Shown: in pieces, positions 1 to 18,636 of the stretch | Layout: the number at the start of each line of letters is the position of its first letter | How positions within the stretch are numbered: the first letter of the stretch is position 1 | Origin: a virus | Lineage: Duplodnaviria; Caudoviricetes | DNA length: 56,215 nucleotides | Reading direction: 5' to 3' (one strand) | IMG/VR virus record: IMGVR_UViG_3300029998_000036 | Location: 1 to 56,215 of that record | The notes under the pieces: model-generated | The model's input: the letters and a program-made list of their open reading frames with translations, nothing else | Databases searched by the model: none | What the model was told of the DNA's origin: nothing | Position numbers and translations under genes: made by a program

Positions 1-158
1 TTAATCAAGCTATGGCATTAAAGAAAGCTGAATTACAGTCTGAACCCGGATTCGCTCCTATTGTCAATATTAGCAATGAAGAAGGTAATAAAGCTGCTTT
101 ACTACAAGAACAAGGTATAAGGACAGTCGCAGCTTCAACGACAGTCAATAGAAAATCT
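1..158. repeat. Terminal direct repeat (copy 1), circular assembly overlap
   Basis: 1-158 matches 56058-56215 except T127 vs C56184. Confidence 0.97.
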
Positions 159-2001: not shown

Positions 2002-5000
2002 GTGCCTTTAACCGATATACTCCAAGATATGGGTAAGACTGCGAGACAGTCTACTCAACCATTAACTACCGAACAACCAATGCAACCTGAAGCCATTATA
2101 GATAAAGCTCAGGTTGCTAAGGTTAAACCTAAACGTAAGACTTATCAAGAACTTCCTGAAAAAGAACAAACTTTAGTTGATAAAGAACAATCTGAACAAT
2201 ATCAAAGACAATTAGATAATGAAGCTAATCCTTTTAGATCATTAGATCAAAATGTCTTTATACCTACCACAGATGACCAAGGTAATACGAAATTGGTTTA
2301 TGATAACGATGAATACATGCGAGCTAAAAAGCAAGCTGATTCGATCTTATATGACCAATTTAATAATAATCCTTATCCTCAGTATCAAGAAGATTACTAT
2401 AATGCCTTTATATTAAAAAAGGACGGTAATCTATTTGACGCTACTAGAGGCTATGCCGGTTCTGCTAGGGTCGCATTAAAAGATATGTATGCAGATGCTA
2501 CTGGACAATCTGATCCTCAAAGAGAGAAAGCTAGAAAGTATTTTAGTGATATTATAGATAACTATACAGGTACTATAAAATCTATTGACGCTTCTAAGTA
2601 TTACGCTTTGGCTAAAGGAGGTTCTATTGATCCTAAAAGTATGATGCACGCTGAATCTAAACAATTTGGTTCTGATATATTCGGAGCCGCGGCTAAAGGA
2701 TTAGGTGGTATATTGTCTGGTCCGTTAGAAACTAACCAAGGGATTGATTTATTTAGTGGAGTTAAAAGCTTAACTGAAGCGGTATATCAACAAAATCTAG
2801 GCTGGATTGTAGATTCTAAACAACATGACGAATATGTTAAAGGACAAACTAAATTAGCTCAGAATGAAGGATTAGTTGGGCTATTAGGTTTAAAAGGAAA
2901 TATAGGTGGTTCAGAGATAAAAAATATAATCAAAAGTCAATTGCAAATGAGTATGGAGAAATACTCTAATCAATTAAAGGAAGATGGTTTATTTGATCCT
3001 AATGCTCCAGATCCTTTATTAGTTAAAATGCAAAATGACTTAAAAGCTATTGATGAAGAAGGTACTAATTTATTAGACTTTGCCGCTAGTACAGGAGTTA
3101 ATTTAACATCGCTTATAACCGATATATACTCTCCACTAGGAGCTTTTAATATAGGTGGTAAAGTTGCTAAGGGAGTTGAGAAAGTAAGCTTTAAGGTCAA
3201 AAGAAGCGTATCTATTGCCAAGGAAATGCAGTTAGGTAAAACATTTGGAGAAATGGATGTTCCTAAGCTTACTAAAGATGTCTTTAGTAACTTTAAAGTT
3301 AGCGAGAATACTTTAAATGAATTTAACCATGTCAATAAAATGACTAACGCAGTTAATATAAATAAGATACCAAATGTAAATTTAATATCTGAACATCCTA
3401 ACGTACAAGCTATTGTAGATTATCTTAAGCCATTCTTAAAGTCTGAAGGAGTTACTCTAGAAGGTAGTTTAATTGAACCGGCGCATAGTATTATTCCTAA
3501 TCTAACAACAGCTATTACTACTTCTTATTTGCAAACTATATTTGGAGATGTTACTCCTACATCAGATGAGATAGAAGCTGCTTCAAAGAATCTAGGTTTA
3601 ATGATGACTGCCGGTACAGTATTATTTAATGGATTACTACGCGGAACAATGATAGAAAATGGATTAGTTAAGAACTCTAAATTATTACAAAATATTGATC
3701 CTGATAAAGCTGAAAGATTAGTTGCTATGATTAACAATAAGAACATGTTTGTTAATGGACTTATGGATGTAGCCGCTGGTACTACACTTGAATTACCTAG
3801 TATTATGCAATTCTCAGCTCAAGATGATACTCATGGAGTAGGTAAAGCTATTGCTCAAAGTTTAATCACTCAATTAGCTATGATGGGACACGGTATAATC
3901 TCTAGTGGTAAAGGTTACTTAAGAGAATCTGATCATTTGAAACAAGAAAATGAATATTATAAATACGTAGACAAATTGACATTATATGACAAAATAGATA
4001 ATGTTGAAGTTCCTATTGGTAAAAGAGATGTTAATTTAGGAGAGTATGTTTATCAGAGAGCTAAACAGCAAAACATAGATGCTGACAATATGAAACTTAG
4101 CGATATGAAAAAGCTTTTAGATAAGACTAATTTAACTAAAGATCAATTAAAAATCATTGATAAGATAAATGATTTAGCTGGTGATGTTAGCGTTAATTTT
4201 TCTAGTACAGATATGCCTTATAACAGACCAGGCAAGTTCAATGCTAATGATAATGCTATTACAGTTAATACAAGCGTTGCTACCGATAGAACATTTAACT
4301 TAGATGGTACAATGGCTAACTTGATTATACATGAAGGTACTCATGCTTTAACCGCCGGTGAATATCGGAATAATCCTACATTTGCTAAGAATATTGATAA
4401 TATGTTTGATGATCTTATTACAAGTCCTTTGTTATCAGATACTCCAATACTTAATCAATTGTCCGGTCCTAATGGAAAAGATGAAATGATGGCTTTATTG
4501 GCTCAAGGTGATCCTAATATTATCAAGGCATTGAATCAATCAGACGTATCAGGACAATACGAGTATTACAAACGTAAAGTAGGTAAGTTGTTTGGTGGTA
4601 AAGAAACTTATGATAAATTCGTTGAAACTTTACAGAGCATACAATCGACTACTCCTTCAGAAGGTACTATGTATGGTTCTAATATATCTACTCTAAAAGC
4701 TATCGCCGGCGGGCCTGTTTATTCAATTAATAATCCTATGCCTTATGAAGTTAAAAATGATCTAAATGATGGCAAAGGAAATATTAGATTAGCTGAATTG
4801 AGTAAAGGTAAAATTTACATTAATACTGATTTTACTCCTGATTACTTTTGGAAGTATTTAATCGGCGAAGTACCTAGTGAAACATCTAAACAAAAGCAAG
4901 CTATGTTAGCTAGAATGGCTAAGGTAGATGGTTATAGCTTAGATAAGGTGAAATCTATTTTAACTCAGCCTCAAGACTTTATAGACTTTTTACATTTACA

Positions 5001-8000
5001 CGAACAATCGCATATTGATAATAACGATTCCGGAAAATATTCTGATTACTTCAAGAAGTATGGTAAACTTGATTACATGTCTGCTGATTTAATCAATGCA
5101 GAGAAACGTGCTACATTAGATGCTTTAAAGATTATAGAGAAACGTAAAGCTACCCAACCTGAAGCTGTTAGGCAAGAAGTGGAATCAATTATATCTATGA
5201 CTGCTAAAGACCCTACTTCTTTTGACCGTACAGAGGTTAATAAGACACAATTGATAGAAACATACGGCAGAGAGTTAATAGAGCGTTCTAAGCCAACGGA
5301 TATAGGTTTCTTTAGGAATCTAGGGTTCATGGATAAGTATAATGGATTTGAAGATATAGCTTCTAAGGATATTGACAAGATTACTAATCTTTATGTTGAT
5401 TACTATAATAGGGTAGAAGGACAATCTGACGATCCTAAAATACAGGAACAAAGATTAAATAAATCTTTATTACAAGCTATGAAACTAAAGAATCAAGTAC
5501 GTAAACCTGAGTATACTATATCTTTTGGTATGAGAGATAAACAAGCTATATTAGATAATGTATCTTTAAATAATACTCCAAAATATCCTGACGGAGAATC
5601 ATTAGATCCTTTCAGAACTAAAATGGATAATTTTAATGATAGATATTCTAAACAACTAGATAGATTTAATAGTGTAAATTTAAATGAATCTGAGAAAGCT
5701 ACATTAGATATTTTAAAAGGATATGATCATGTAACTGTTAATGGATATATCAACGATAAAGATACTGGTCACGATTCTGGTACTATTATAGCTAGAAATC
5801 CTGAATTAGCTAATCAATTAGCTGAGAAAGGTTTTGTCTATCTACCTAAAGCAACCGGTGGTAAAGTTATTAAACTAAATTTTAATGGCAAAGATCCTGC
5901 TATAATCGCTCAAGACTTGATGCAAATGGACTTGAAATATTTTCTATCGTCTGATGGAACTTATGGTCGCTATGGAGCCGGAAAGGCTATTGGTAATGAT
6001 CCTGTTATACTTAGTTTATTAGACTGGAATAAAATCAACAAAGGGATATTAACTAAGGATTATTTTATTGATAGCCCCAATATAGAACCTAAGGATTTAG
6101 AGAAATTACAACCTATATTTCAAGAAGTAAATAATGCTATTGATAATTATCTTAGAGGACCTAATGGCGAGCATATCTATAAAGATTCTAAACCTTCTTT
6201 GATAGATGCTTTTACTTCTCATTACCTTAATGTAATTGATGAATCTGCACAAACCAAAGGTACTAGATTAATTAAAGATAATTTAGGTAATACTCAAATA
6301 GCTGATAAAAAGATACCAAATAAGTATAATGCTCCTTTAGTTGATTCAGATACATTCTCGTACAAAGGAGAACAAGGTATAACAGTATTTGAAAAAATTA
6401 CTGGATTGGGAAGTGATATATCTTATTCTGATGCTAGACGTAGTGGTATAGATAAAGATAGTAAAGGTATATTTAGATCTACTGCTATAATTGATCCTGA
6501 TTGGCTTAAACCTAATACTGGATTATTTCCTAATGAAATGTTATATCGTTTTATGAAGGAAAAGGAAAATGATGGTGGGCAGAACTATCTTAATAGAGAA
6601 TCAGCTTTAATAGATTCTAGAGCTTTAGGTAAAGGAGATGAAATACCTGCATTAAGTAAGCAAGGTAATGGTTCTAGTGGCACTATAAATAAGTCTGCTA
6701 TGCACTATCAAGTATTCGATGAGTATAATGATTTGCATGAATCTGAATTAACTTCATTTAAAAAGAAATTACAATATGCCGGTATATCTGATGTAAGTAA
6801 TAGTTCATGTTTCAAAATGCCTAATTCATTTGAGTATATAAAGAAACCCGGACTTATTGATGGCACTACATTAGTAATGGACGGCGGTACTAATCTATTA
6901 CAGGTATTAGATAAAAATGGTAAAGTAGATAAAGACTTAAAAGATGAAACTATAAAAATCTATTTACATCAATTGTTCAATGAAGGTAATACTCCTGAAC
7001 AGTTTAAACATAAAACTTATTTAGCCGGTGAAAATCCTTCTAATTATATGTTTGGTTCTCATGTTTACGAAGATCATAAATTGAATACTGGAGCTGGTAC
7101 TTTAGGGATAAACAAAACTCCTAACTTTAGCCGTACTTCTAGGTTCTTTGAAGGAGAACTAGGACAAAAGACTTATGAAGCTACTAAAGATACTGAAAGA
7201 CTTATTGAGAATAGTTCTAAACAGCAAGACAATGATATATGTTTCTTAGAAGCTACTCATAGAAAATATGCTGATTTATTAAATAGTGCGATAGATAAAA
7301 ATGGATTAGCTGATTTTAATATAAATCCTGAAGATGCTACAAGACTTATTCGTGGTATGAAAACTATGATCAATAGTCTTAGAGAATCAGAAGTTAAGAA
7401 TGACTATATTAACGTAGATTACGCCGAATTAGCCTCTAAAATGATTGAAGATAGGTACAAGTATGCCTTAGACAATAATGAACCTATAAACGATTCTATT
7501 AAAGATATTTTCACATTGTATCATCAAATGGTAGGTTCAAGAGCTGGTGAAACATATAATCAAAAAGCTGGTCAATTTACCGTATATTCTGAAGCTAGAT
7601 CTAGAATAGCTGAAAAGGCTTATCAAGGATATACAGCTGGTATGAGCGTTAAACTTGGTACTTCTAATGAGGGTATAGCTTCTTATCATAGAGGATTAGA
7701 TGGATTTGCTAATATGGAATTAAGGCGTCAATTTGATAATCTAGTTAAACAAGGATTTACAAATAAACCTAGCGAAGAATCTACTTTATTGCATAATAAG
7801 ATAGAGGAATTCGGAGGTGACATTGAATCTGTTTATAGTGAATGGTCTAAATTACATATTGATAAAATTAAAGAAGGTTTGCTAAATACAACAGCTGAAC
7901 TATTACCTGAAATATTTGATGAAACTGGTTGGTGGAAAGAAAATGCTAAATTATCTGGTATAGTGTTAAGTGCTAAGGATATTGAACAATTAAACAAAAT

Positions 8001-11000
8001 ATCTGCTGAACCAATTACTTTGGGTAGTAAGATACTTGTTACTAGAGTTCCATTGGATAACGAAGCTTCTATGATGCCTGCTGTTGTCATTGGACTAGAG
8101 AATCATAATGGAGGCGTTGTAAGAGGCAATAAAGAACTAATAGCTCACTTTACTGGAGCTGATGATGATGGTGATGGTATATCATTACGTCCGGCTGATA
8201 AATTCAATTTCCCTAAAAAGAACTTCGACCCTATTTGGGAGCATTGGAAAGAACAAATGTCTTATATGAATAATGTTAAAAAGGGAGCTAGTGATTTAGA
8301 AGCTCAGGAAAAGATATTACAAAATGGTACTCGTAAAGTTTATAATACTTTGAAACAATATATTCCTAATTTACAGGCTAACGAATTAATCCAAAAGTCT
8401 AATCAACCCGGAATATTTAATAGAGCTATGCAAGCTGATAAATCAATGGACGTAACAGCTCGTAATGCTACTGCATTGCATGTAGCTAAAAACGGTTTAT
8501 CACCTGAATTAAGGAATATGGAAATTGATATTGGTGGTAAAATGTACCCTGCATTTGATGTTATTACAGCTTATCTTAATCCTAAATCAGTTGATATGTT
8601 TAATCCTCAGGTAGTTGATAATAAGAACGCAGTCGCTAATCTAATGGGTTATTCTGATTTAGATTCAATGCTAACTGAAGTAGGTGGTAAAGGTCGTAGC
8701 GCATTAAAGAAATTCAAAGAGCTGGGTTATAATGAAGCTAGTGAGAAATTAGCTTCTACAGTTTCAGATGAAGGTGGTCCGTTGAATAGAGTTGCTAAGT
8801 TTCTAAATGACAATACAATGGAACATGGTTTAAACAAAGACCATACTTCTATATTTGCCGCTCACAATAAGATGCAGTCTAATATGGCAGATCAGATTAT
8901 GTCTAAGGTGACTGATACAGTCAATAATATGTCTTTCCAAAATGAAGATGGTAGCCTTAATAGAACTAAGCTATTGTTTACGCCGGTGATTAATACTGCT
9001 CATGGTAAAAAAGTATCGTTAGGAGACTTAGCAATAGCTTTAAATCAATCTAAAGGTCAAGAGTTTTATGATGTAGTCCAACGTATATTTGGTATTGATT
9101 ATCCTACTATCGATAAGATATTAAAAGGCAACCAAAGAGTTAATGTTAAGTTAGATGGTAACGATTACAACATATCTCCTAATATTAAACAATTAGCAGG
9201 TATACATACTAAGAATGTTTTAAATAGTCTAGTATTAGGTCCGGGCAATATTAAGACTATTGAACTCAATAAACAGCTTGGTACTTCAATGACTATATAT
9301 CCTGATAGAACTATTAAATTGCCTGATGGTACTATCAAACCTATACATCAATTATTTGAACGTGATGGTAATGTTAAAGCATTTAAAACTCCTTATGAAA
9401 ATAACCAATTTATATATGCAGTGCAAAAAGCTATTAAAACTTCTGGTAATAAACAAGGACTTGTATTTGATAATAGCCAAGAATCTATTAAGATGCGTAA
9501 TAAGGAATATATCAATTCAATTGCAGATGCTTTCTCTAATGGAACTGAAGACGCTTCATTAATGACGACAGCTATTGCTTACCATCCTACAAGTCCCGAT
9601 GGCACGACTTTACTAAACAATGGTACAAATGAACCAAGTTCTATTTGGGCGCAGTCTAATGGTCCACAAATGCGTAATGACCTTATTAAAAACTATATGT
9701 CGCAAGGTATTGATAAAAAGACAGCTGAATACTTATCTAAAAAGAAATTAACAGCTGGATATGTTGATTTGCTTAATTTAACTGGATTACCTTTAAAAGT
9801 AGACAAAGGTACAAGCTTAGTAGATTTCACATTACAAAAGCAAACTGATATGTTGTATCCTAATAATAATGATTTAGGAACTACTGAACGATTTGACAAT
9901 CCATTTTACAGTTCAGTACAATCATTAAAGAATGAACCAACTAGAAAATTGTTTGAAATGAGAAAAGGTGATATAGCCGACTACGTTATGAAAGTAGATA
10001 AGAGAGCCGGTAGATTAATGAGACAAGGATTAGCAGGAAAGGCACTTTCTAGCCTTTCTAACGAACAATATCACGGTATAATTAAAGATATACTTAAGCC
10101 TGCTATTGAATCCAATATAGTCAAAGTATCGAGTAAACAGAAATGGAACGAAGCTCACACTAAAGAAGTATTAGACAACTTAGAATCTGTATTGGAATCT
10201 AATAATATAGATAATGCTGAGAAGTCTTGGCAAGATTCATTCGGTAGTAAAATAGGTTCTACTTTGTTTAGAGCTAATTATATAGCAGGATTGTTTAAAG
10301 ACTTAGCTAATGCTAATAAAACTTATAATAATAGGTCTACTCAATTTGCTTTATTCAATACTAGAACTCCTGAAGGTATCATTGACAGGGTATCTGTATA
10401 TAAGAATTTTTATGATGCTAGCCATGAGTATATTAAGTTCTTCACTAATACTGGCGATGTATCAAACGAACATCCCGGACTTGTCAAAGATATATTAGAG
10501 AAAACAAGTGGTAATGTATTAGCCGCTACCTACATGTCTAAAGCTCTAGTTGAAATAGTTAAACCATTGGACTTCTACAATAACATTAAAGATTCAATGA
10601 AATCCCAAATTACTCAATTCCATTTAGACAAAAACTTAACTGGTCATTTACAAGATTTTAAGCCTGAAGAATTGACTAATATATTCAAAGACGATGATTT
10701 GTCCAATATACTTAGTAATACTAATTTTAGTTCTATTACTGGCATAGAAACTATAAAGCAAGCTCTTTGTAATTATGGTGGAGTATCAGGTGATCTTAAT
10801 AATACTGAACTAATAGCTAAACAGATTGCTAAAAGCTGGAAAGAGACTAAACTAAATCCAATAGATTATTACCATGAGGATATAGAGACCGGTGGAGAGT
10901 ATAAAACTGCTATACCTAAACATTTAGTCGAATCAGTTCCTCCAGAGGTTTTAGCGGATTATAACGCATGGAGTTTAAGCCAAGGTTATCAAGAGAAAGT

Positions 11001-14000
11001 TGGAGAATTACATAAAGAGTTAGATCTTAAATCTAATCAAATTGAGAAAGCTGTTAATTCGTTTCTAAAGTATAAGACTTTCTACAATGCAATTGGTGAT
11101 CAAGCATTAAACTTAGCTAAAAGTTTTGATGATTTTATAATTAAACAAAAGTTTGATGTTAATGATCCTTCATCATTCGGACCATTAGGATTAGCTACTA
11201 GAGCTGTTAATAATTTAACTGAATTATCTAATGACTTAAAATCTATGGATAGCAAACGGTTCTTAAGTTCTATATCTACTACTGAAGCCGGTGATTTGGC
11301 TTTTGCTAGCGAACTCAATACTAAGCTGATTCAACCTACTTTAAAAGAAGAAGGCATATTACAAGAAACTAGAGAGGAGCTTAATACTAAATTCGATTAT
11401 AAGAACCAATCTGGCGTCCCTATGATGCGTATGATGCTTAATGCAATAGAAGCTACTGGTCATGGTCCAATAAATGATATAGGGACTAGAAAGTTCTTTA
11501 CCGATATGCTTAGAGAACAATCCAATGAAATGTACAATAGAAACTTATTCGGACAAAAACCTAATATTCCTATTGATATATCTCAAACCGCTTTACCAAT
11601 AGATGATATTATTGGTTCTGCTATTGAGTACCATAATCTTAATAACCAAGATAAGATGTGGTATGATCAAATGCAAAAGTTAGGAGTTCCTGAGTTCCAA
11701 GACGCTTGGTCTAATTTAGATCATATATCTAAAAGAGATCTATCTGAAGTCGCTAGACAAGTTATTAGTTCTAAAGTATCTGGAGCTATTAATAAAGCTA
11801 AAGGTGATATGGTTATACAAGAATTTTGGGACGATAATGGTTTATCGTTTGATCCGGCAAGACCTAAAAAACTTGAAGATGGTTCTTATGGTTATATTGG
11901 AATTGACGTTAATGGTATCAAAAAGAATATTGACTTAATTGACTTATATAATTTATTAGACAAAAGCGATCGTTCTTATAAGACTATATATGATCCTAGT
12001 AGGTTATCAGGTAAAGTTAATAGCCAAGTACAAGTAGCGTTACTCAATATGCAAGAAGTAGCTAGACAATCTTATGGTAGATATGGTGACGACAATCCTT
12101 ATGCCGCTGGATTAATTACTGAAAAGTTATCTCAAGGTATTAATGGTAAATATAGATTTATGCACGACCACGATGTTAGTATGTGGGCTTCTCAATTAGA
12201 TGATAAAGATTCATCTCAACCATTTGATGCTGGTAGTCCAATGAGTATTATAGCTAACGTCAATGGAGAATCAAGACAATTGGTAGGTTATGGCATTACT
12301 ATAATGAATCGATCTGTTGATGTAAAGAATAGCGATAAAATGAAAGCTATTAATAAATTAGAAGCTAGTGGTTATCATGCAGACTTAGCTCCAGATCAAA
12401 AAGCTATGATGACTAATGGTCGTAAAATACCTTCATTGATTATGGTAGATTCATTTGGTGGTAAAGATCCCGTTATATACTCAATACCTCTTTCTAGCGT
12501 TCAAAATGCTACAAGTGGAGATTGTTATGGCTGGACTAGTAATCGTCAATTAGAACGTCTTAAAAAGGCTTCTAATGGTATTGTAGATGGAATTGTTTCT
12601 AGCTTAAAGAATCCTAGAATAGTAGAGAATGATTTCAAAGCTTATCCTGATGCTAAGTATGTAATGGATAGAGAAGGATTTTATCAAGACTATAATTATA
12701 AAGCAGATAATACTAAAGGCAATTTACAAGTAAGACAAAAGCTATTAACTTTAGCCGGCGGTTTACCTAATTCAGAGTTTAGACAATATGCCGTTGCAAT
12801 GTCAAAAGATGCTATTGGAACTGATCTAATTAAACTAATGGCAGATGGTTATAATTCGTATCAAGGTAAGATGAAATACTGGGGAGGTTCGTATGTTGTT
12901 ACTACTGCAGCTGCTGGATTAATAGCAACTGGAGCAGCTTTAACTGGCAATATACCATTAGCTGGTTTAATGGCTGGTACTGCATTGAAATCTGTTGCTG
13001 GGTTTACTAAAAATATATTATGGCGTAAAGTAATTGCCAATAGAGCAACTACTGGTCAATGGGCATTACGTAATTATATACCTGACTTAGATAAAAATAA
13101 AGATCTTACTATTTCAGATAGTTTCGCTTCTTATATCTGGAGACCTTTAACTGAGGTATATAAATCATTAGGAGAGGTTAAATCATTATCTGAATCAGAT
13201 CTATCAATGGCAGCTGGTAAAATAGCTAGATTAACATTTGGAGAGCATTTAACTACTGAAGGTTCTAACTATGGTTTAGATATTCAAACTAAAGACGTAT
13301 CATTACAAAAGAAGATATATAAAGAGAGACTAGATATATTAGAAAAAACTAATAAAATGATTGAGAATGCAGGTCGTACCGACTTAGATGTTACTAAAGC
13401 TCAGTATCTATTAGAAGATTTATTGTCTAGTTCTAAATTCAATAAAGATGTTAAAGGATTAGTATATAAAGACCAATCTGGTTCATTCTCTACAATAGCC
13501 GGATTAACTAAAGAGGATATAACAGTTGCTAAAGATGAATTAGGTTCTTGGTTAAGTTCTACTGCATACGCCCAGTTCCTAGCTAATCAAGAAAAGAATA
13601 GCGCTATGAACACTACCAAGGTTGGTTTAAAGCATTCTATTAATATGCAGGAACAGCTTAAAAAAGCATTTGGCAATAGAGAGATATTCCAAGATGGGGC
13701 TGTTAACCAAACTGCATGGGACGATGTATTGACTATGAATACATTAAGTTATATTAGTCAAAGAACTATTGGTAACTTTGAAAAAATAGGTTCTGCTGCT
13801 ACTCCATTTGGTAGATGGGCATTAATGTTCTCACAGTTCTTACATGAGAATATATATGATACTACAATTGGTTCGGCTAATAGACGCAAACTATACAGAG
13901 CCTTAGAAAATGAAATTAACTTATTGCCTAAAGATGATGTTGCTAGAAAGGTAATGACTAAGTACGGTATCTTGGTAGGTGATAAATTATTCCATACTCC

Positions 14001-14505
14001 AAAGACTGAGACTAAAGCTATATTAGGTTCATTAACAGGTAATATGTTATTATCCTTAGTTGGCTTAGCTACATTACAGACTATGAATAACAATCTAGGT
14101 AAAGATGTAACTGAGATTACTGATGATGCTTTAAAGATGATAGCTGAACCTATGAATCTATCAGGACCGGTACAGAATAATTTAGTACGTGGAGTTGTTG
14201 GACTAGGATTTGATCTATTTGCTAATAAGCCTACATCTCAAAGTATTGTTAGTAATGCTTCTTATGGACAACAAGATTTACAATCTACATTAGGATTAGG
14301 TGTTGGACAATCTCAAGTATTAAAGCCTGAAGTAGTTATTGGATATGTAGCTTTACGTCATATATTAGAGGAAGCTAGAATAGTTCATAAAGTAACTGAT
14401 CATAAGCAAATGGAAGCTTTATTAGATAATACAATGATTGAAATGACTAATGAACTTGGCTTAGGTAATATAACTAGAACGTTATTAAAGAAAAAGAAAA
14501 AATAA
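2002..14505 (+). CDS. Giant virion protein: zincin (HExxH) domains + two-barrel (DPBB) RNA polymerase + hydrophobic C-terminal region; putative virion RNA polymerase/ejection polyprotein
   Basis: HEGTH (~aa777), HEQSH (~aa1000), NDGG (~aa1524), downstream Lys motifs LSKQ, NKSA and SSCFK, LVTRVP (~aa2015), TGADDDGDG (aa2054-2058). Located after small ejection-like genes. Confidence 0.75.
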   Translation: MPLTDILQDMGKTARQSTQPLTTEQPMQPEAIIDKAQVAKVKPKRKTYQELPEKEQTLVDKEQSEQYQRQLDNEANPFRSLDQNVFIPTTDDQGNTKLVYDNDEYMRAKKQADSILYDQFNNNPYPQYQEDYYNAFILKKDGNLFDATRGYAGSARVALKDMYADATGQSDPQREKARKYFSDIIDNYTGTIKSIDASKYYALAKGGSIDPKSMMHAESKQFGSDIFGAAAKGLGGILSGPLETNQGIDLFSGVKSLTEAVYQQNLGWIVDSKQHDEYVKGQTKLAQNEGLVGLLGLKGNIGGSEIKNIIKSQLQMSMEKYSNQLKEDGLFDPNAPDPLLVKMQNDLKAIDEEGTNLLDFAASTGVNLTSLITDIYSPLGAFNIGGKVAKGVEKVSFKVKRSVSIAKEMQLGKTFGEMDVPKLTKDVFSNFKVSENTLNEFNHVNKMTNAVNINKIPNVNLISEHPNVQAIVDYLKPFLKSEGVTLEGSLIEPAHSIIPNLTTAITTSYLQTIFGDVTPTSDEIEAASKNLGLMMTAGTVLFNGLLRGTMIENGLVKNSKLLQNIDPDKAERLVAMINNKNMFVNGLMDVAAGTTLELPSIMQFSAQDDTHGVGKAIAQSLITQLAMMGHGIISSGKGYLRESDHLKQENEYYKYVDKLTLYDKIDNVEVPIGKRDVNLGEYVYQRAKQQNIDADNMKLSDMKKLLDKTNLTKDQLKIIDKINDLAGDVSVNFSSTDMPYNRPGKFNANDNAITVNTSVATDRTFNLDGTMANLIIHEGTHALTAGEYRNNPTFAKNIDNMFDDLITSPLLSDTPILNQLSGPNGKDEMMALLAQGDPNIIKALNQSDVSGQYEYYKRKVGKLFGGKETYDKFVETLQSIQSTTPSEGTMYGSNISTLKAIAGGPVYSINNPMPYEVKNDLNDGKGNIRLAELSKGKIYINTDFTPDYFWKYLIGEVPSETSKQKQAMLARMAKVDGYSLDKVKSILTQPQDFIDFLHLHEQSHIDNNDSGKYSDYFKKYGKLDYMSADLINAEKRATLDALKIIEKRKATQPEAVRQEVESIISMTAKDPTSFDRTEVNKTQLIETYGRELIERSKPTDIGFFRNLGFMDKYNGFEDIASKDIDKITNLYVDYYNRVEGQSDDPKIQEQRLNKSLLQAMKLKNQVRKPEYTISFGMRDKQAILDNVSLNNTPKYPDGESLDPFRTKMDNFNDRYSKQLDRFNSVNLNESEKATLDILKGYDHVTVNGYINDKDTGHDSGTIIARNPELANQLAEKGFVYLPKATGGKVIKLNFNGKDPAIIAQDLMQMDLKYFLSSDGTYGRYGAGKAIGNDPVILSLLDWNKINKGILTKDYFIDSPNIEPKDLEKLQPIFQEVNNAIDNYLRGPNGEHIYKDSKPSLIDAFTSHYLNVIDESAQTKGTRLIKDNLGNTQIADKKIPNKYNAPLVDSDTFSYKGEQGITVFEKITGLGSDISYSDARRSGIDKDSKGIFRSTAIIDPDWLKPNTGLFPNEMLYRFMKEKENDGGQNYLNRESALIDSRALGKGDEIPALSKQGNGSSGTINKSAMHYQVFDEYNDLHESELTSFKKKLQYAGISDVSNSSCFKMPNSFEYIKKPGLIDGTTLVMDGGTNLLQVLDKNGKVDKDLKDETIKIYLHQLFNEGNTPEQFKHKTYLAGENPSNYMFGSHVYEDHKLNTGAGTLGINKTPNFSRTSRFFEGELGQKTYEATKDTERLIENSSKQQDNDICFLEATHRKYADLLNSAIDKNGLADFNINPEDATRLIRGMKTMINSLRESEVKNDYINVDYAELASKMIEDRYKYALDNNEPINDSIKDIFTLYHQMVGSRAGETYNQKAGQFTVYSEARSRIAEKAYQGYTAGMSVKLGTSNEGIASYHRGLDGFANMELRRQFDNLVKQGFTNKPSEESTLLHNKIEEFGGDIESVYSEWSKLHIDKIKEGLLNTTAELLPEIFDETGWWKENAKLSGIVLSAKDIEQLNKISAEPITLGSKILVTRVPLDNEASMMPAVVIGLENHNGGVVRGNKELIAHFTGADDDGDGISLRPADKFNFPKKNFDPIWEHWKEQMSYMNNVKKGASDLEAQEKILQNGTRKVYNTLKQYIPNLQANELIQKSNQPGIFNRAMQADKSMDVTARNATALHVAKNGLSPELRNMEIDIGGKMYPAFDVITAYLNPKSVDMFNPQVVDNKNAVANLMGYSDLDSMLTEVGGKGRSALKKFKELGYNEASEKLASTVSDEGGPLNRVAKFLNDNTMEHGLNKDHTSIFAAHNKMQSNMADQIMSKVTDTVNNMSFQNEDGSLNRTKLLFTPVINTAHGKKVSLGDLAIALNQSKGQEFYDVVQRIFGIDYPTIDKILKGNQRVNVKLDGNDYNISPNIKQLAGIHTKNVLNSLVLGPGNIKTIELNKQLGTSMTIYPDRTIKLPDGTIKPIHQLFERDGNVKAFKTPYENNQFIYAVQKAIKTSGNKQGLVFDNSQESIKMRNKEYINSIADAFSNGTEDASLMTTAIAYHPTSPDGTTLLNNGTNEPSSIWAQSNGPQMRNDLIKNYMSQGIDKKTAEYLSKKKLTAGYVDLLNLTGLPLKVDKGTSLVDFTLQKQTDMLYPNNNDLGTTERFDNPFYSSVQSLKNEPTRKLFEMRKGDIADYVMKVDKRAGRLMRQGLAGKALSSLSNEQYHGIIKDILKPAIESNIVKVSSKQKWNEAHTKEVLDNLESVLESNNIDNAEKSWQDSFGSKIGSTLFRANYIAGLFKDLANANKTYNNRSTQFALFNTRTPEGIIDRVSVYKNFYDASHEYIKFFTNTGDVSNEHPGLVKDILEKTSGNVLAATYMSKALVEIVKPLDFYNNIKDSMKSQITQFHLDKNLTGHLQDFKPEELTNIFKDDDLSNILSNTNFSSITGIETIKQALCNYGGVSGDLNNTELIAKQIAKSWKETKLNPIDYYHEDIETGGEYKTAIPKHLVESVPPEVLADYNAWSLSQGYQEKVGELHKELDLKSNQIEKAVNSFLKYKTFYNAIGDQALNLAKSFDDFIIKQKFDVNDPSSFGPLGLATRAVNNLTELSNDLKSMDSKRFLSSISTTEAGDLAFASELNTKLIQPTLKEEGILQETREELNTKFDYKNQSGVPMMRMMLNAIEATGHGPINDIGTRKFFTDMLREQSNEMYNRNLFGQKPNIPIDISQTALPIDDIIGSAIEYHNLNNQDKMWYDQMQKLGVPEFQDAWSNLDHISKRDLSEVARQVISSKVSGAINKAKGDMVIQEFWDDNGLSFDPARPKKLEDGSYGYIGIDVNGIKKNIDLIDLYNLLDKSDRSYKTIYDPSRLSGKVNSQVQVALLNMQEVARQSYGRYGDDNPYAAGLITEKLSQGINGKYRFMHDHDVSMWASQLDDKDSSQPFDAGSPMSIIANVNGESRQLVGYGITIMNRSVDVKNSDKMKAINKLEASGYHADLAPDQKAMMTNGRKIPSLIMVDSFGGKDPVIYSIPLSSVQNATSGDCYGWTSNRQLERLKKASNGIVDGIVSSLKNPRIVENDFKAYPDAKYVMDREGFYQDYNYKADNTKGNLQVRQKLLTLAGGLPNSEFRQYAVAMSKDAIGTDLIKLMADGYNSYQGKMKYWGGSYVVTTAAAGLIATGAALTGNIPLAGLMAGTALKSVAGFTKNILWRKVIANRATTGQWALRNYIPDLDKNKDLTISDSFASYIWRPLTEVYKSLGEVKSLSESDLSMAAGKIARLTFGEHLTTEGSNYGLDIQTKDVSLQKKIYKERLDILEKTNKMIENAGRTDLDVTKAQYLLEDLLSSSKFNKDVKGLVYKDQSGSFSTIAGLTKEDITVAKDELGSWLSSTAYAQFLANQEKNSAMNTTKVGLKHSINMQEQLKKAFGNREIFQDGAVNQTAWDDVLTMNTLSYISQRTIGNFEKIGSAATPFGRWALMFSQFLHENIYDTTIGSANRRKLYRALENEINLLPKDDVARKVMTKYGILVGDKLFHTPKTETKAILGSLTGNMLLSLVGLATLQTMNNNLGKDVTEITDDALKMIAEPMNLSGPVQNNLVRGVVGLGFDLFANKPTSQSIVSNASYGQQDLQSTLGLGVGQSQVLKPEVVIGYVALRHILEEARIVHKVTDHKQMEALLDNTMIEMTNELGLGNITRTLLKKKKK

Positions 14506-14911: not shown

Positions 14912-15370
14912 ATGGTAGATATTATACCACCGGATAGAGAATATATTGCTAAAGTTAATGCCGACCAATTGTCATTAGAACGCTCAGAAGCTAAAGCTAA
15001 GGCATTAAAGGATCGTGAAGCAATAGATTCTATGACTGCCAATCTAGAGGCTCAATACAGAGCCTCTATTGAGGTAAAAGAACAACCTAGTATTTGGAGT
15101 ATAGCTTGGTTTATCATAACTAACTCTCCAAAGTTATTAGTATTAATTTATCAATTCTTAAAGGTTATAACAATGAATGAAGACAAGAAGACTACAGTTA
15201 TGGCTACTGCTAAAATAGTATGTGGTATCATTGCCTTAGGATTAAGTATATTTCATATTGACTTATCTGCCGGTATGCAAGAAACATTAGTTGGTTTAGC
15301 TGGTTCAGGTTATTTAGTATTCTCTTGGTTACAAGGACTATTCACCAATAAAAAGACTGAAGCAAAATAA
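14912..15370 (+). CDS. Putative holin-like membrane protein
   Basis: Hydrophobic segments (IVCGIIALGLSIF, LVGLAGSGYLVFSWL), basic C-terminus, coupled to the terminase gene. Confidence 0.5.
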   Translation: MVDIIPPDREYIAKVNADQLSLERSEAKAKALKDREAIDSMTANLEAQYRASIEVKEQPSIWSIAWFIITNSPKLLVLIYQFLKVITMNEDKKTTVMATAKIVCGIIALGLSIFHIDLSAGMQETLVGLAGSGYLVFSWLQGLFTNKKTEAK

Positions 15371-17220
15371 TGGATGAACAATTCCTATTAAGCTTACTAG
15401 ACAATACTGCGCCTAGGTCCCAATTACAGGATCTAGGCATTTTAAAATTTGCTAAAACTTTCTTTCCTAAAAGATTTGAATACGATTTCGCTGATGTTCA
15501 TTATGATATGATTATGCTATTGTTCATGTTACTTGATCCTCAATACGAATATCAAACTGAACGTCAAGCATACTTCCTAGTGCATAGAGAAGCCGCTAAG
15601 ACTACTTTAGGTACATTCTTATTCCCAATGTATCTTATCTATATGAAAGGTCTTAAAATCAATGCTAGGCTCTATAATCGTAGCTGGAAAGGTAGAGGTG
15701 ATGATGAGAATTATAGACTAGGACAAATAGAGATTAATGAGAATTTTATATTAATAGCTTCTGAAACTGCTAGAGCTTCTGAGAATTTTGTTGTTTCATT
15801 AAGAGATGAGATTACTAGACGTTCTGATATGTCTATGATATTTGGAGAGAAAGATCCTAAAGAGATTATCATTGAAGATGAAAGAGAACGTAAGACTGAT
15901 AATACATGGCGTAAAGCCGCATTCAAGACAGCCGATAATACTGTTGTTATTGGACTAGGAGCTGGACAACAATCACGTGGTACTAATATTGATGGCTCAC
16001 GTCCTACCTTAGTTATCGTAGACGATATGTATTCACATAAGAATATAACAACTGAGGAGTCACGTGAAAAGATACGTTATTGGTTCGATTCAGAGCTTAC
16101 AAACTCATTAGATTCACGTAAAGGTAAAATACTATGGTCTGGTACTTTATTGCATCCTGATACGGTTGTAAAGGACTTTGATAAAGAAGACTGGTTCGGT
16201 ATATCAAGACCGCTTATCAATGTAGAGGAATTAACTGAAGTTATCAAAGGTTGTTCTAATAGTGGTTCATTTGTTATGCCTTCTAAGGAATGGTGCATTA
16301 GGAAACAACCTACATTAAAATCATTATCTTGGACTAGCCGGCATGATCTATATTCGATCATGTTACGTTATCGTAAAGCCTTGGATAAAGGTAAACTAAA
16401 TAACTTCTATCAGGAGTTTATGAATGAATACTTAGCTCCTGAAACTAAAATGATTCATAAAGATTCTTTTCTACCTTGTAAGCTTAATATATTTAAACAG
16501 CAAGGTATGCAAATGGTAGAGTTTAAACATGAGAACATTGACTGGTATGGTACTTGCTCTTTGTCAATCGGTTTTGATATTGCTAGTTCTACTTCTAACA
16601 ATACTGATGATACCGTTATTATGGTTGCTGGTTATGCTAGATGTTATCCTAAGATACAAGGTTTAGACTGGCAATCACAACAATCAACTATGCCTATGGG
16701 TAGAGTATTCCCTATCATAGCTCATATTGAAGGTGGTAAGTATTCTATCCATAACTATCAGAATACTAAAGGTCAATTAGAATCAATAGAAGCCTTATGT
16801 AGACGCTACGTAATAGACCGTGTTAAGATGGAGGCTAATGGACAACAGGCTTTAATAGAAAGAGAGCTTAGAAGTCATTTACAAGAGAATAATATACATG
16901 TTAGTGTTTGGGCTGAGTATACTAGTCAAAACAAAGCTGATCGTATATTGTCAGTAGTATTGCCTGTTATCCAAAAGTATACTAATATCTTATGTGAACC
17001 TAGTTCTTTAATTGAAAAACTATACTTTCAAACATTAACAGTTGGTATGAGTGATCATGATGATTATGCAGATGCCTATTCAATTGCAATGAAAGCTTCT
17101 AAACCTCCATTAAGAGTATTTGGACTTCAAACACATTTAGATACATCTGTAACGCAAACTAAGACGCGATGGGATCAATTAGTTGATGCGTACGGCAATG
17201 ATGCCTATTTATATTTATAG
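15370..17220 (+). CDS. terL: Terminase large subunit
   Basis: Walker A-like HREAAKTT, RGTNIDGSRPTLVIVDD (Walker B), GTLLHPD coupling motif, FYQEFMN, nuclease GFDIA and HDDYADA. Confidence 0.9.
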   Translation: MDEQFLLSLLDNTAPRSQLQDLGILKFAKTFFPKRFEYDFADVHYDMIMLLFMLLDPQYEYQTERQAYFLVHREAAKTTLGTFLFPMYLIYMKGLKINARLYNRSWKGRGDDENYRLGQIEINENFILIASETARASENFVVSLRDEITRRSDMSMIFGEKDPKEIIIEDERERKTDNTWRKAAFKTADNTVVIGLGAGQQSRGTNIDGSRPTLVIVDDMYSHKNITTEESREKIRYWFDSELTNSLDSRKGKILWSGTLLHPDTVVKDFDKEDWFGISRPLINVEELTEVIKGCSNSGSFVMPSKEWCIRKQPTLKSLSWTSRHDLYSIMLRYRKALDKGKLNNFYQEFMNEYLAPETKMIHKDSFLPCKLNIFKQQGMQMVEFKHENIDWYGTCSLSIGFDIASSTSNNTDDTVIMVAGYARCYPKIQGLDWQSQQSTMPMGRVFPIIAHIEGGKYSIHNYQNTKGQLESIEALCRRYVIDRVKMEANGQQALIERELRSHLQENNIHVSVWAEYTSQNKADRILSVVLPVIQKYTNILCEPSSLIEKLYFQTLTVGMSDHDDYADAYSIAMKASKPPLRVFGLQTHLDTSVTQTKTRWDQLVDAYGNDAYLYL

Positions 17221-17228: not shown

Positions 17229-17717
17229 ATGGGACGTAGGTTAGCAAATAGACAACCGGAGAATAAGAACCCTAGACTATTTAATCTTAATCATAGAGAT
17301 ATAGCTATTATTAGTCTAATTGGTAATGGAGTACAATATGATGATGCTATTAATACTTTTTATAAAGATAAACAGGCTATCAATAGAAGGCAGGATTTAA
17401 AACGTAATCCAATATTTCTATTTGCCTTAGCCAAGGAGCTTAGAGTGGTTAATGAATTTAAAGATGCCGGCTTAGATGAAACATGGTTAGCTAAACAATT
17501 GATGTCATTAGTAGAGGATAAAACAGAGAATCAATCAATGCGTAGCCAAGCTCTTACCATGATCAAAGATACTTTTACTCAACAGAATAAACAAAAAGGC
17601 GGTATGATAAGTGGTTTGATGCAACAGCAGCAATCTAGCCAATCATTGCCTGATAGTCAAGGAATGATAAGAAGAATATCTGAGACTACTACAAAGACTA
17701 TCGAAGATCTTATTTAA
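17229..17717 (+). CDS. Possible terminase small subunit
   Basis: 162 aa next to terL; HTH-like N-terminus and a helical-hairpin segment (GLDETWLAKQLMSLVED...RSQALTMI). Confidence 0.4.
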   Translation: MGRRLANRQPENKNPRLFNLNHRDIAIISLIGNGVQYDDAINTFYKDKQAINRRQDLKRNPIFLFALAKELRVVNEFKDAGLDETWLAKQLMSLVEDKTENQSMRSQALTMIKDTFTQQNKQKGGMISGLMQQQQSSQSLPDSQGMIRRISETTTKTIEDLI

Positions 17718-17723
17718 ACTATT

Positions 17724-17761
17724 AAAAAAATCCCTATATATCGTATTGATATATAGGGATT
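17724..17761. terminator. Intrinsic terminator between convergent operons
   Basis: AATCCCTATATATC-GTATT-GATATATAGGGATT 14-bp stem; A7 on the left gives a U tract on the minus strand. Confidence 0.85.
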
Positions 17762-17768: not shown

Positions 17769-17948
17769 TTAAGATTTAAACTGTTTTTGGTACTCTTCTG
17801 CTTTACTGAACATACTATCAACAATAGATTCTAGTTTTGCTTTATCTATTGTATTGTTAGATTCTATTAATGTTCCTATCTCTATATATCCATCTAATAG
17901 TATATCTAATATTTCCTGTAAATAGATTATCGTATCAGTTATTTTCAT
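17769..17948 (-). CDS. Small hypothetical protein (59 aa)
   Basis: Open frame MKITDTIIYLQEILD... with GAGG upstream; last gene of the leftward operon. Confidence 0.5.
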   Translation of the reverse strand: MKITDTIIYLQEILDILLDGYIEIGTLIESNNTIDKAKLESIVDSMFSKAEEYQKQFKS

Positions 17949-17949
17949 A

Positions 17950-18174
17950 TTAACCTCTATTACTTTCTATCGAATCATCCATTGCATTGCATAGTAATTT
18001 ACAATCAGGACAATATAGTCTTTGAGCGTATTCTAACGAAGCTTTTAATCCTTCATCTGTATCATGCATATTTGATTGACTAACTATTGAGTTAATTCTA
18101 GCTTTACATACATGGCACTCTGGTATCTTAGTTGTCCAGTTATTCAATGCTACTATTAATTTACTTTTTGTCAT
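17950..18174 (-). CDS. Small Zn-finger-like protein
   Basis: CHVC and CPDC motifs. Confidence 0.55.
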   Translation of the reverse strand: MTKSKLIVALNNWTTKIPECHVCKARINSIVSQSNMHDTDEGLKASLEYAQRLYCPDCKLLCNAMDDSIESNRG

Positions 18175-18383
18175 TTTGTTTCTTCTTGTTTAATTATATT
18201 ATTAATTTGAAGTTCTATTCTATTCAATTCTGTTCTAATATTTGACTCGTTTTCTATTATATCGGGTATTGGTGCTAGATATACTTTCGATTGATTGTTG
18301 TTTACAACCCAATAGTCTTTCAAATATATTTTTATATCTGCAATAGAATTAAGTATTATTTGAATATCGTTATTCTTTGTCAT
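18171..18383 (-). CDS. Hypothetical protein
   Basis: ORF with AAGGA RBS; 4-nt overlap with the next gene. Confidence 0.6.
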   Translation of the reverse strand: MTKNNDIQIILNSIADIKIYLKDYWVVNNNQSKVYLAPIPDIIENESNIRTELNRIELQINNIIKQEETK

Positions 18384-18394
18384 TTTATTATTCC

Positions 18395-18580
18395 TTATTT
18401 TGGTTGAGAATCTAATATTTGTTTTACTAAGTGTCTTATATCTTTTAATGCTTTAATACAATTTGCTATGTCGTTGTTACGAAAAGTTACTATTGTATCT
18501 GATTTCGCTCTCCATTGAGATTTTAATGTATCTCCAATTGAATAAGCCATATTCTGTATTCCATATAATTCTTTAAGCAT
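18395..18580 (-). CDS. Hypothetical protein
   Basis: ORF with AAGGA RBS. Confidence 0.6.
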   Translation of the reverse strand: MLKELYGIQNMAYSIGDTLKSQWRAKSDTIVTFRNNDIANCIKALKDIRHLVKQILDSQPK

Positions 18581-18603
18581 AACTATTATTCCTTAAACTA
18601 AAT

Positions 18604-18628
18604 AAAAAAAAGCCCTATCTCTAGGGCT
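18604..18628 (-). terminator. Intrinsic terminator
   Basis: AGCCCTA-TCTC-TAGGGCT stem with an A tract on the left (U tract on the minus strand). Confidence 0.8.
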
Positions 18629-18636
18629 AATTAATA

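What the first reader, a model, noticed from the sequence alone, without database searches (positions are those of the whole stretch)
2002..14505. 4167-aa virion polyprotein with a divergent two-barrel RNA polymerase (DDDGD active site)
Seen: LVTRVP (nt 8044) followed about 40 aa later by TGADDDGDG (nt 8161), and upstream NDGG (6571), LSKQ, NKSA and SSCFK. Known: two-barrel polymerases (cellular beta/beta', QDE-1-type RdRPs, YonO, phi14:2 gp66) have RxP...DxDGD in one barrel and DG plus conserved lysines in the other; crAss-like phages inject such an enzyme for early transcription. The variable position here is Asp rather than the usual hydrophobic residue. Inference: a virion-delivered single-chain RNAP in a small non-crAss-type genome.
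Basis: partly seen in the sequence, partly recalled or inferred. Interest (0 to 1): 0.85.

Follow-up and report, generated by a model that had tools for sequence, protein, structure and literature searches.

The report
Giant phage protein, probable injected RNA polymerase
A 4167-residue protein of a 56-kb peat phage carries, in its conserved centre, a catalytic domain that resembles the RNA polymerases that crAss-like and Thermus phages inject into their hosts, so this type of enzyme probably also occurs in an unrelated, uncultured phage lineage.

Summary
The ORF (2002-14505, 4167 aa) and the motifs are real. Some coordinates are 3-9 nt off. The DxDxD motif alone is not evidence, because 1.7 are expected by chance in a protein of this size. 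Standard searches found only the protein itself. Synteny with the terminase gene recovered four more phages, each with a 4009-4913 aa (about 4900 in one) gene in the same place. All five keep D-x-D-x-D: DDDGD here, DYDKD or DFDKD in the relatives. The best-conserved block is aa ~1197-2256.

The clade profile aligns over RxP...DxDxD with two experimentally proven virion two-barrel RNA polymerases: crAss-like gp66 (P 3e-4) and P23-45 gp96 (P 3.3e-4). Those two match each other only at P 0.036. An N-terminal HExxH domain is 34% identical to one in a crAss-like polymerase protein. N4-type polymerase shows no similarity.

Not shown:
- The second barrel (sequence comparison not significant).
- Virion packaging and polymerase activity.

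The terminase, portal and capsid genes are not crAss-type.

Verdict: probably a new, very divergent family of injected single-chain two-barrel RNA polymerase inside a polyvalent giant protein. Confidence is about 0.6.

The parts
2002..14505 (+). Giant ORF of 4167 aa (GTG start as listed; the true start codon is uncertain).
   Evidence: Independent contigs cover it without indels. No Pfam, PHROG or NCBIfam family.
4099..4611 (+). HExxH domain 1 (aa ~700-870; HEGTH at aa 777, nt 4330-4344). Candidate zincin-like metallopeptidase.
   Evidence: H-E-x-x-H is invariant in 4 of 4 clade members whose N-terminal part is available. BLASTP block 592-794 matches L022 at E 8.7e-4. There is no profile-level support.
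4780..5151 (+). HExxH domain 2 (aa 927-1050; HEQSH at aa 1000, nt 4999-5013), shared with a crAss-like polymerase protein.
   Evidence: Its only tblastn match among 50,697 phage records is cr116_1 (listed under two accessions), at E 3e-7. BLASTP gives E 1e-14 and 34% identity over 134 aa, with HEQSH aligned to HELSH. The matched protein is the gp66 homologue.
5590..8769 (+). Conserved core of the clade (aa ~1197-2256). Candidate polymerase module.
   Evidence: BLASTP of the window protein against the relatives gives its longest and best blocks here, E 7e-14 to 2e-15.
6544..6831 (+). Upstream motifs NDGG, NKSA and SSCFK (aa 1515-1610). Candidate second barrel, unproven.
   Evidence: D1524 and K1564 are invariant in 5 of 5. 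The best local hhalign pairs SSCFK with gp66 GVKVG (K1065), but E is 0.58 and not significant.
7894..8268 (+). Catalytic-barrel-like region (aa 1965-2089), including RxP (R2015, P2017).
   Evidence: hhalign versus the crAss-like profile: P 3e-4, 57 gapless columns, aa 2010-2066 to gp66 1317-1373. hhalign versus P23-45 gp96: P 3.3e-4, 115 columns, aa 1965-2089 to gp96 693-816.
8161..8175 (+). D2054-D-D2056-G-D2058, the candidate Mg-binding triad.
   Evidence: Located. The three Asp are invariant in 5 of 5 members.
8569..8646 (+). Conserved Y-x-x-(Q/P)-K-(G/S)-V-D-x-x-N block (aa 2190-2215). Possibly a bridge-helix or trigger-loop equivalent.
   Evidence: D2198 is invariant. The best local hhalign pairs it with gp66 ~1600-1612, but E is 0.94 and not significant.
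12799..13011 (+). Gly/Ala-rich hydrophobic stretch (aa ~3626-3665).
   Evidence: Sequence printed. Relatives have hydrophobic segments 570-612 aa from their C-termini.
14020..14076 (+). Hydrophobic segment at aa 4007-4025, 160 aa from the C-terminus.
   Evidence: Kyte-Doolittle score 1.65. G001 has one 180 aa from its C-terminus.
15370..17220 (+). Large terminase gene, the synteny anchor used to find the relatives.
   Evidence: phrog_38, E 1.6e-44. Relatives are 39-45% identical, and the five loci that reach upstream (two of them near-identical contigs of one phage) each have a giant ORF immediately upstream.

Best explanation
The gene encodes a giant multi-domain ('polyvalent') protein of a roughly 56-kb tailed phage found in peat metagenomes. 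Its conserved centre (aa ~1197-2256) is most likely a single-chain two-barrel RNA polymerase. The barrel that carries R2015-x-P2017 and D2054/D2056/D2058 binds the catalytic magnesium, as in cellular beta-prime, QDE-1, crAss-like gp66 and P23-45 gp96.

By analogy with those two phage enzymes, and from its place at the end of the structural gene block, the protein is probably packaged in the virion. It would then be ejected with the DNA and transcribe the first phage genes independently of the host polymerase.

The N-terminal HExxH domains may cut the protein or host targets. The C-terminal hydrophobic segments may help passage through the envelope.

Shown here: the ORF, its conservation, and homology of the catalytic-barrel region. 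Inferred: the second barrel, the fold, polymerase activity, packaging, ejection and the roles of the flanking domains.
For: 1. Five phages (the window, G001, L021, L022/L005, L029/L009) carry a 4009-4913 aa ORF (about 4900 aa in L022/L005) directly upstream of related terminases.
2. The best BLASTP match between the window protein and G001 lies exactly over the motif region (E 2e-11). The most conserved block clade-wide is aa ~1197-2256.
3. D-x-D-x-D is invariant in 5 of 5 members and P of RxP in 5 of 5.
4. hhalign of the clade profile against a 9-sequence crAss-like polymerase profile gives P 3e-4 and score 45.8 over 57 gapless columns covering RxP...DFDxD. The reversed template scored 24.2, the reversed query 24.1, and 0 of 20 column shuffles exceeded 19.3.
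5. hhalign against P23-45 gp96 gives P 3.3e-4 and score 42.4 over 115 columns on the same region. gp66 versus gp96 reaches only P 0.036.
6. With the 86-column profile, 2 of the 4 best PDB sequences are the gp96 polymerase, aligned over the same stretch. Their E-values of 1.3-1.8 are not significant.
7. aa 927-1050 has one match among all phage records, a domain of the crAss-like cr116_1 gp66 homologue.
8. Two clade members and that crAss-like protein carry ART-PolyVal, a domain of injected polyvalent proteins.
9. The gene follows the portal, capsid and tail-like genes. phi14:2 has the same kind of order.
Against: - No structure could be predicted, so no barrel has been seen.
- hhalign probabilities are only 35-40%, and the significant alignment covers 57-115 residues.
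- The upstream barrel and the bridge-helix/trigger-loop regions gave non-significant alignments (E 0.58 and 0.94).
- DGG is not conserved in two members.
- The Arg of RxP is Val in L022/L005.
- The motif alone is expected by chance.
- PDB profile searches were not significant, and the gp96 rows did not reappear with the longer profile.
- E. coli beta-prime aligns in register only at P 0.2.
- Neither virion proteomics nor RNA data were available.
- sigma-70-like sites are no rarer than in shuffles (105 versus 99.2), so host-polymerase independence is not indicated by sequence.
Confidence: 0.6

Rival explanations
1. A virion ejection or internal protein with no polymerase activity. Under this reading the conserved centre is a structural or other enzymatic domain, the acidic D-x-D-x-D loop binds metal for a different reaction or for stability, and the resemblance to polymerase barrels is a relic or a coincidence.
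For: The second barrel is unsupported. The motif alone is expected by chance. The fourth motif position is Lys in 4 of 5 members and the second is Asp in the window, both unusual. Arg of RxP is lost in one lineage. Hydrophobic C-terminal segments fit an ejection protein.
Against: Two independent proven polymerases match the same region at P about 3e-4, with clean controls. All three Asp are kept across proteins only 20-30% identical. crAss-like enzymes also lack Gly at position 4 and are active (passages of the preprint 10.1101/2020.03.07.982082).
Confidence: 0.2
2. A two-barrel polymerase that is made after infection and works in the cell as a non-virion enzyme, like P23-45 gp64. Alternatively it has another nucleic-acid role, such as priming replication.
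For: Packaging is untested. PHROG scans of the 31 ORFs of 150 aa or more found a DnaB-like helicase and an exonuclease but no DNA polymerase or primase. QDE-1 has dual template use (search-listing abstract of PMC9508822).
Against: The gene sits between tail-like genes and the terminase, not in the replication block. Its size, HExxH domains and hydrophobic C-terminus resemble injected polyvalent proteins. The relatives carry ART-PolyVal.
Confidence: 0.12
3. An N4-type virion polymerase, meaning a T7-like right-hand enzyme inside a giant protein. The distantly N4-like terminase might suggest this.
For: Most of the listed tblastn hits of the terminase are phages that I recall as N4-like, at 21-24% identity; the hit with the best E-value (7e-16) is a Desulfofustis phage. 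N4-like polymerases are fused to zincin-like domains (PMC5512222, passages).
Against: BLASTP against N4 gp50 gives a best E of 0.57. hhalign gives P 0.31 for the mini-polymerase domain and 0.66 for the full length. tblastn of all three thirds of the protein against 50,697 phage records hit no N4-like phage.
Confidence: 0.02

Closest known systems
crAss-like phage virion RNA polymerase (Cellulophaga phage phi14:2 gp66, PDB 6VR4)
   Same: Both are giant proteins encoded at the end of the structural block. The catalytic-barrel region aligns without gaps (R-x-P...S...I-x-G...G-x-D-F/D-D-x-D). Position 4 is not Gly in 4 of 5 clade members, and it is I or V in crAss-like enzymes. An HExxH domain is shared with the cr116_1 homologue. 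ART-PolyVal occurs in relatives on both sides. Some Crassvirales versions are also 4460-4774 aa long.
   Different: No similarity is detectable outside 57 columns plus the one N-terminal domain. gp66 tblastn finds 141 phage records, whereas the window protein finds none over its polymerase region. Terminase, portal and capsid belong to other PHROG families and show no BLASTP similarity. The genome is 56 kb rather than about 90-100 kb. The source is peat rather than gut or marine. The motif is DDDGD/DFDKD rather than DFD(I/V)D.
Thermus phage P23-45 gp96, the tape-measure-fused virion RNA polymerase (PDB 8H2M/8H2N)
   Same: In both, a two-barrel module sits inside a giant virion protein of more than 4000 aa. 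This gives the longest profile alignment (115 columns, P 3.3e-4) and includes the strand upstream of RxP. It carries DFDGD, with Gly at position 4 as in the window protein.
   Different: gp96 is a tape measure of a long-tailed siphovirus with the polymerase at its N-terminus. Here the module is central, and no tape-measure family was found by Pfam or PHROGs. There is no similarity outside the catalytic barrel.
Coliphage N4 gp50 virion RNA polymerase and polyvalent proteins in general
   Same: It shares the concept: a 3500-aa injected protein with a central polymerase and flanking domains, including zincin-like HExxH domains (PMC5512222, passages). The terminase is distantly similar to N4-like ones (the N4-like label is recalled).
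   Different: The catalytic module is of a different, unrelated fold class (T7-like), and no sequence similarity was found.

Membership tests
Two-barrel (double-psi beta-barrel) RNA polymerase superfamily | Three metal-binding aspartates, D-x-D-x-D, in the beta-prime-like barrel. | tested here: met
   D2054/D2056/D2058 are invariant in 5 of 5 clade members.
Two-barrel (double-psi beta-barrel) RNA polymerase superfamily | Sequence homology of the region around the motif to accepted members. | tested here: met
   hhalign gives P 3e-4 to the gp66 family and P 3.3e-4 to gp96. Controls scored 24 or below. Probabilities are only 35-40%. E. coli beta-prime aligns in register at P 0.2.
Two-barrel (double-psi beta-barrel) RNA polymerase superfamily | A second (beta-like) barrel with conserved basic residues, upstream in the same chain. 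| tested here: inconclusive
   K1564 and D1524 are invariant. The best local alignment pairs SSCFK with gp66 K1065, but E is 0.58.
Two-barrel (double-psi beta-barrel) RNA polymerase superfamily | Bridge helix and trigger loop after the catalytic barrel. | tested here: inconclusive
   The conserved block at aa 2190-2215 aligns to gp66 ~1600-1612 only at E 0.94.
Two-barrel (double-psi beta-barrel) RNA polymerase superfamily | Two double-psi beta-barrel folds facing one cleft. | not tested
The one accepted job was interrupted. No fold search was possible.
Two-barrel (double-psi beta-barrel) RNA polymerase superfamily | Mg-dependent, template-dependent RNA synthesis. | not testable with these tools
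   This needs biochemistry.
crAss-like virion RNA polymerase (gp66 family) / Crassvirales | Detectable homology across the gp66 core (about aa 860-1750). | tested here: not met
   Only 57 columns are significant. tblastn of aa 1401-2300 found no phage record.
crAss-like virion RNA polymerase (gp66 family) / Crassvirales | DFD(I/V)D motif. | tested here: not met
   The clade has DDDGD, DYDKD and DFDKD three times. The crAss-like set has I or V in 9 of 9.
crAss-like virion RNA polymerase (gp66 family) / Crassvirales | Crassvirales-type terminase, portal and major capsid protein. | tested here: not met
   BLASTP E-values are 0.16-0.96. The window's genes fall in PHROGs 38/156/1328, phi14:2's in 6681/6547/11589.
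N4-like (T7-like) virion RNA polymerase | Sequence similarity to the N4 gp50 polymerase domain. | tested here: not met
   BLASTP best E is 0.57. hhalign P is 0.31 and 0.66.
Polyvalent proteins of phages (Iyer et al. 2017) | A giant multi-domain protein with one or more zincin-like HExxH domains. | tested here: inconclusive
   HExxH is invariant in 4 of 4 members, and a second copy is shared with a crAss-like protein. No Pfam or PDB profile hit names it a zincin.
Polyvalent proteins of phages (Iyer et al. 2017) | Host-modifying effector domains such as ART-PolyVal. | tested here: not met
   None is found in the window protein. It is present in relatives L021 (E 2.5e-47) and L022 (E 1.2e-21).

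The most novel reading that the evidence does not exclude
Injected two-barrel RNA polymerases may not be a speciality of crAss-like phages. They may be an old, exchangeable module of podovirus-type giant ejection proteins. On this reading, a phage lineage whose packaging genes are nearest to N4-like phages carries a two-barrel enzyme where N4 carries a T7-like one. That would be a non-homologous swap of the catalytic core inside the same kind of injected scaffold. The enzyme might also substitute for the DNA polymerase or primase that this genome seems to lack.
Probability: 0.2. Interest if true: 0.8.

Novelty: new variant of a known kind. Interest (0 to 1): 0.6.

Why it matters
Virion-delivered two-barrel RNA polymerases are known from crAss-like phages and from P23-45-like Thermus phages. 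They are central to ideas on how RNA polymerases, and the eukaryotic RNA-interference polymerases, arose.

A third, very divergent family would show three things:
- The strategy is more widespread than thought, since this family occurs in small peat phages with unrelated head and packaging genes.
- The polymerase module moves between phage lineages as part of polyvalent injected proteins.
- The metal-binding motif tolerates Asp at position 2 and Lys at position 4.

It also gives a compact 1060-residue core to test biochemically. My five literature searches found no description of this clade. The list of 23 polymerase families in the supplements of the P23-45 paper could not be read and may bear on this claim.

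Tried and rejected
Searches with no hit for the window protein:
- Pfam, PHROG and NCBIfam scans found nothing above threshold. Pfam scans of the five 86-aa core segments also found nothing.
- phmmer against PDB found nothing significant. Profile searches with A1, A6 and A7 found nothing significant either.
- Protein searches of the 5.8-billion set returned only the protein itself or nothing. The 1.84-billion representative set returned only the protein itself.
- tblastn of aa 1401-2300 and aa 2301-4167 against phages found no match.

Searches for more relatives:
- Pattern scans of viral contigs with the protein or with A1 found nothing.
- Later scans re-found only known members.
- The genome contigs terminase scan gave only distant hits in MAGs, which do not identify a host.

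Sequencing runs: no RNA holder is listed, so nothing can be said about expression.

Other negative results:
- Rfam and tRNA scans were empty.
- The fold of 19715-19915 had z = -1.46, which is unremarkable.
- sigma-70-like sites are not enriched.
- The internal-duplication test of the two HExxH domains was weak, E 0.034 over 14 aa.

Considered and rejected: N4-type polymerase, and membership of Crassvirales.
Full report
**The observation.** The window is a complete virus record of 56,215 bases, with CheckV completeness of 100. It has a 158-nt direct repeat at its two ends and a G+C content of about 32%. The ORF 2002-14505 (+) is open for 4167 codons.

Three coordinates are 3-9 nt off:
- LVTRVP at aa 2012 (nt 8035).
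- DDDGD at aa 2054-2058 (nt 8161).
- NDGG at aa 1523 (nt 6568).
- LSKQ at aa 1551, NKSA at aa 1563, SSCFK at aa 1601.

Taken alone the motif means little. A protein of this size and composition is expected to hold 1.7 DxDxD. DxDGD turns up in 554 of 5000 shuffles, and RxP-x(30-45)-DxDxD in 130 of 5000.

The gene is not an assembly artefact. Contigs of four further peat metagenome runs cover all 30 bins of it, and the listed pieces have no gaps and at most one differing letter.

**Genome context.** PHROG scans of the 30 other ORFs of 150 aa or more gave these assignments:
- large terminase, 15370-17220;
- DnaB-like helicase, 31689-33017;
- exonuclease, 33853-34854;
- portal, 38270-40537;
- major head protein, 41544-43049;
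- endolysin, 45587-46132;
- fibre-like protein, 51617-52765.

The giant gene follows the tail-like genes across the end repeat and precedes the terminase, so it sits in the structural block.

The phage is not a crassvirus by its hallmark genes. Its terminase, portal and capsid proteins show no BLASTP similarity to those of phi14:2 (E 0.16-0.96) and fall in other PHROG families. Most of the listed tblastn hits of the terminase among cultured phages, at 21-24% identity, are phages that I recall as N4-like; the hit with the best E-value (7e-16, 26% identity) is a Desulfofustis phage.

**Standard homology searches fail.** The following found nothing for the giant protein:
- No Pfam, PHROG or NCBIfam family was found.
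- There was no significant PDB sequence hit.
- tblastn of aa 1401-2300 or aa 2301-4167 against phage records gave no match.
- Only the protein itself came back from the 5.8-billion protein set and the 1.84-billion representative set.

**Relatives found by synteny.** Searching with the terminase recovered related loci in viral and metagenome collections. Later scans extended these loci. Every locus that reaches upstream of the terminase holds a giant ORF there:

| Genome | Giant ORF | Motif |
|---|---|---|
| Window | 4167 aa | DDDGD |
| G001 | 4480 aa | DYDKD |
| L021 (= L006 contig) | 4913 aa, stop to stop | DFDKD |
| L022 with L005 (near-identical contigs) | about 4900 aa | DFDKD |
| L029 (= L009 contig) | 4012 aa, stop to stop | DFDKD |

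No further member was found.

The best BLASTP segment between the window protein and G001 lies exactly over the motif region: E 2e-11, 27% identity, aa 1967-2215. Across the clade, the longest and strongest blocks cover aa ~1197-2256 (E 7e-14 to 2e-15). Weaker blocks lie at 592-794, 2676-3079 and 3859-4001.

In the alignments:
- The three aspartates and the Pro of RxP are invariant in 5 of 5 members.
- The Arg is Val in L022/L005.
- Asp at motif position 2 is peculiar to the window. The others have F or Y.
- Gly at position 4 is also peculiar to the window. The others have Lys.

**Comparison with proven two-barrel polymerases.** I built a 9-sequence profile from phi14:2 gp66 (aa 701-1760) and eight Crassvirales homologues.

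hhalign of the clade profile against it gave a single hit: P 3e-4, score 45.8, probability 39.6%. It spans 57 gapless columns, pairing window aa 2010-2066 with gp66 1317-1373. The shared pattern is R-x-P...S...I-x-G...G-x-D-F-D-x-D, ending on the gp66 DFDID motif. According to the preprint, mutation of that motif abolishes activity.

Controls:
- reversed template, 24.2;
- reversed query, 24.1;
- 20 column shuffles, at most 19.3.

Against the P23-45 gp96 virion polymerase as a single sequence, the clade profile gave P 3.3e-4 and score 42.4 over 115 columns. This pairs window aa 1965-2089 with gp96 693-816, including DFDGD at 779. As a yardstick, the crAss-like profile against gp96 reaches only P 0.036 over 32 columns.

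A PDB profile search with the 86-column core was not significant. Even so, 2 of its 4 best rows were gp96 entries aligned over the same stretch, at E 1.3-1.8. With a longer profile they did not reappear.

E. coli beta-prime aligns in register (NRAP...NADFDGD), but only as the second hit at P 0.2. gp66 and gp96 do not find beta-prime at all by this method.

The P23-45 paper states that many of these families share no significant sequence similarity beyond the small region around DxDxD (section 9 read). The kind of evidence obtained here is therefore the kind to be expected.

**What is not shown.** Alignments restricted to the upstream and downstream parts were not significant. Their best local pairs fall on plausible places:
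- SSCFK with gp66 K1065, at E 0.58.
- aa ~2186-2201 with gp66 ~1600-1612 near the trigger loop, at E 0.94.

DGG is DGA and DSL in two members. Only D1524 and K1564 are invariant.

No fold could be examined.

**Flanking domains.** An HExxH motif at aa 777 is invariant in the 4 members whose N-terminal part is available.

A second HExxH domain (aa 927-1050) has exactly one match among 50,697 phage records, the crAss-like phage cr116_1 (listed under two accessions), at E 3e-7. By BLASTP it is 34% identical over 134 aa, E 1e-14. The matched 2507-aa protein is the gp66 homologue of that phage, E 1e-16.

That protein, and the giant proteins of L021 and L022, carry the Pfam domain ART-PolyVal, with E-values of 9e-13, 2.5e-47 and 1.2e-21. 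The window protein and G001 do not.

The polyvalent-protein paper (passages read) describes giant injected proteins. In these, zincin-like peptidases are the commonest domain and are thought to process the polypeptide, and N4-like polymerases are always fused to such domains.

Hydrophobic segments lie near the C-terminus in all members examined.

Some Crassvirales polymerase genes are also 4460-4774 codons long. The size alone is therefore not new.

**Rival: N4-type enzyme.** BLASTP against N4 gp50 gives a best E of 0.57. hhalign gives P 0.31 and 0.66. This reading is rejected.

**Mechanism proposed.**
- Shown: a conserved giant gene in the structural block, whose most conserved region contains a domain homologous to the catalytic barrel of virion two-barrel polymerases, with the metal triad intact.
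- Inferred: a second barrel upstream, and polymerase activity. Also inferred are packaging and ejection with the DNA, followed by host-independent early transcription. The early genes may be the small-gene blocks that diverge from the AT-rich repeat region at 19.5-20.4 kb. Possible self-processing by the HExxH domains is likewise an inference.
- No RNA run holds the sequence, so expression timing is unknown.

**Novelty.** The kind (an injected single-chain two-barrel polymerase inside a giant protein) is known. This family, its phage lineage (five genomes; the three full-length records are 54-56 kb, and the window's own sequence is held by peat metagenome runs) and its motif variants are not described in the papers my five searches returned.

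I rate it a new variant of a known kind, with interest 0.6 and confidence 0.6 in the polymerase reading.

Noticed in passing
window 1-158 and 56058-56215: A 158-nt direct repeat at the two ends, 99% identical. The genome is therefore about 56,057 bp, either circularly assembled or with terminal repeats.
   Followed up: no
window 19560-20045 (with 19720-19910): An AT-rich array of TATAGTATAATATA-like units in two clusters. They flank a G+C-richer stretch with a hairpin. The array lies between small-gene blocks that diverge from it (17769-19513 on the minus strand, 20440-26718 on the plus strand). It is a candidate origin or early control region. The fold z-score was only -1.46, and there was no Rfam hit.
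   Followed up: partly
L021:2463-17204 (aa 1270-1473) and L022:4253-11893 (aa 1099-1305): Two clade relatives carry ART-PolyVal ADP-ribosyltransferase domains in the N-terminal part of their giant proteins. L021 has three stretches. The window protein has HExxH domains at the corresponding distance from the motif.
   Followed up: partly
L023:9589-17112 (crAss-like phage cr116_1): The annotated 2507-aa gp66 homologue ends inside the catalytic motif (after ...TGSDFD). The polymerase gene therefore looks interrupted or split exactly there.
   Followed up: no
window, whole: PHROG scans of the 31 ORFs of 150 aa or more found no DNA polymerase, primase or second RNA polymerase. They found only a DnaB-like helicase and an exonuclease. 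Smaller ORFs were not scanned.
   Followed up: no
window 17729-17761: A perfect 14-15 bp bidirectional terminator-like hairpin lies between the convergent genes 17229-17717 (+) and 17769-17948 (-).
   Followed up: no
window 51617-52765: This protein has a YadA_stalk coiled-stalk match (E 3.6e-8) and tail-fibre or decoration PHROG hits. Internal 171-177 nt repeats lie at 52214-52522. It is a likely receptor-binding fibre.
   Followed up: no
window 22146-22715: The C-terminal half of this 189-aa early-region protein matches PHROGs annotated as dATP/dGTP pyrophosphohydrolase and as T7-lysozyme-like endolysin that inhibits RNA polymerase (E 3e-32 and 2e-21).
   Followed up: no
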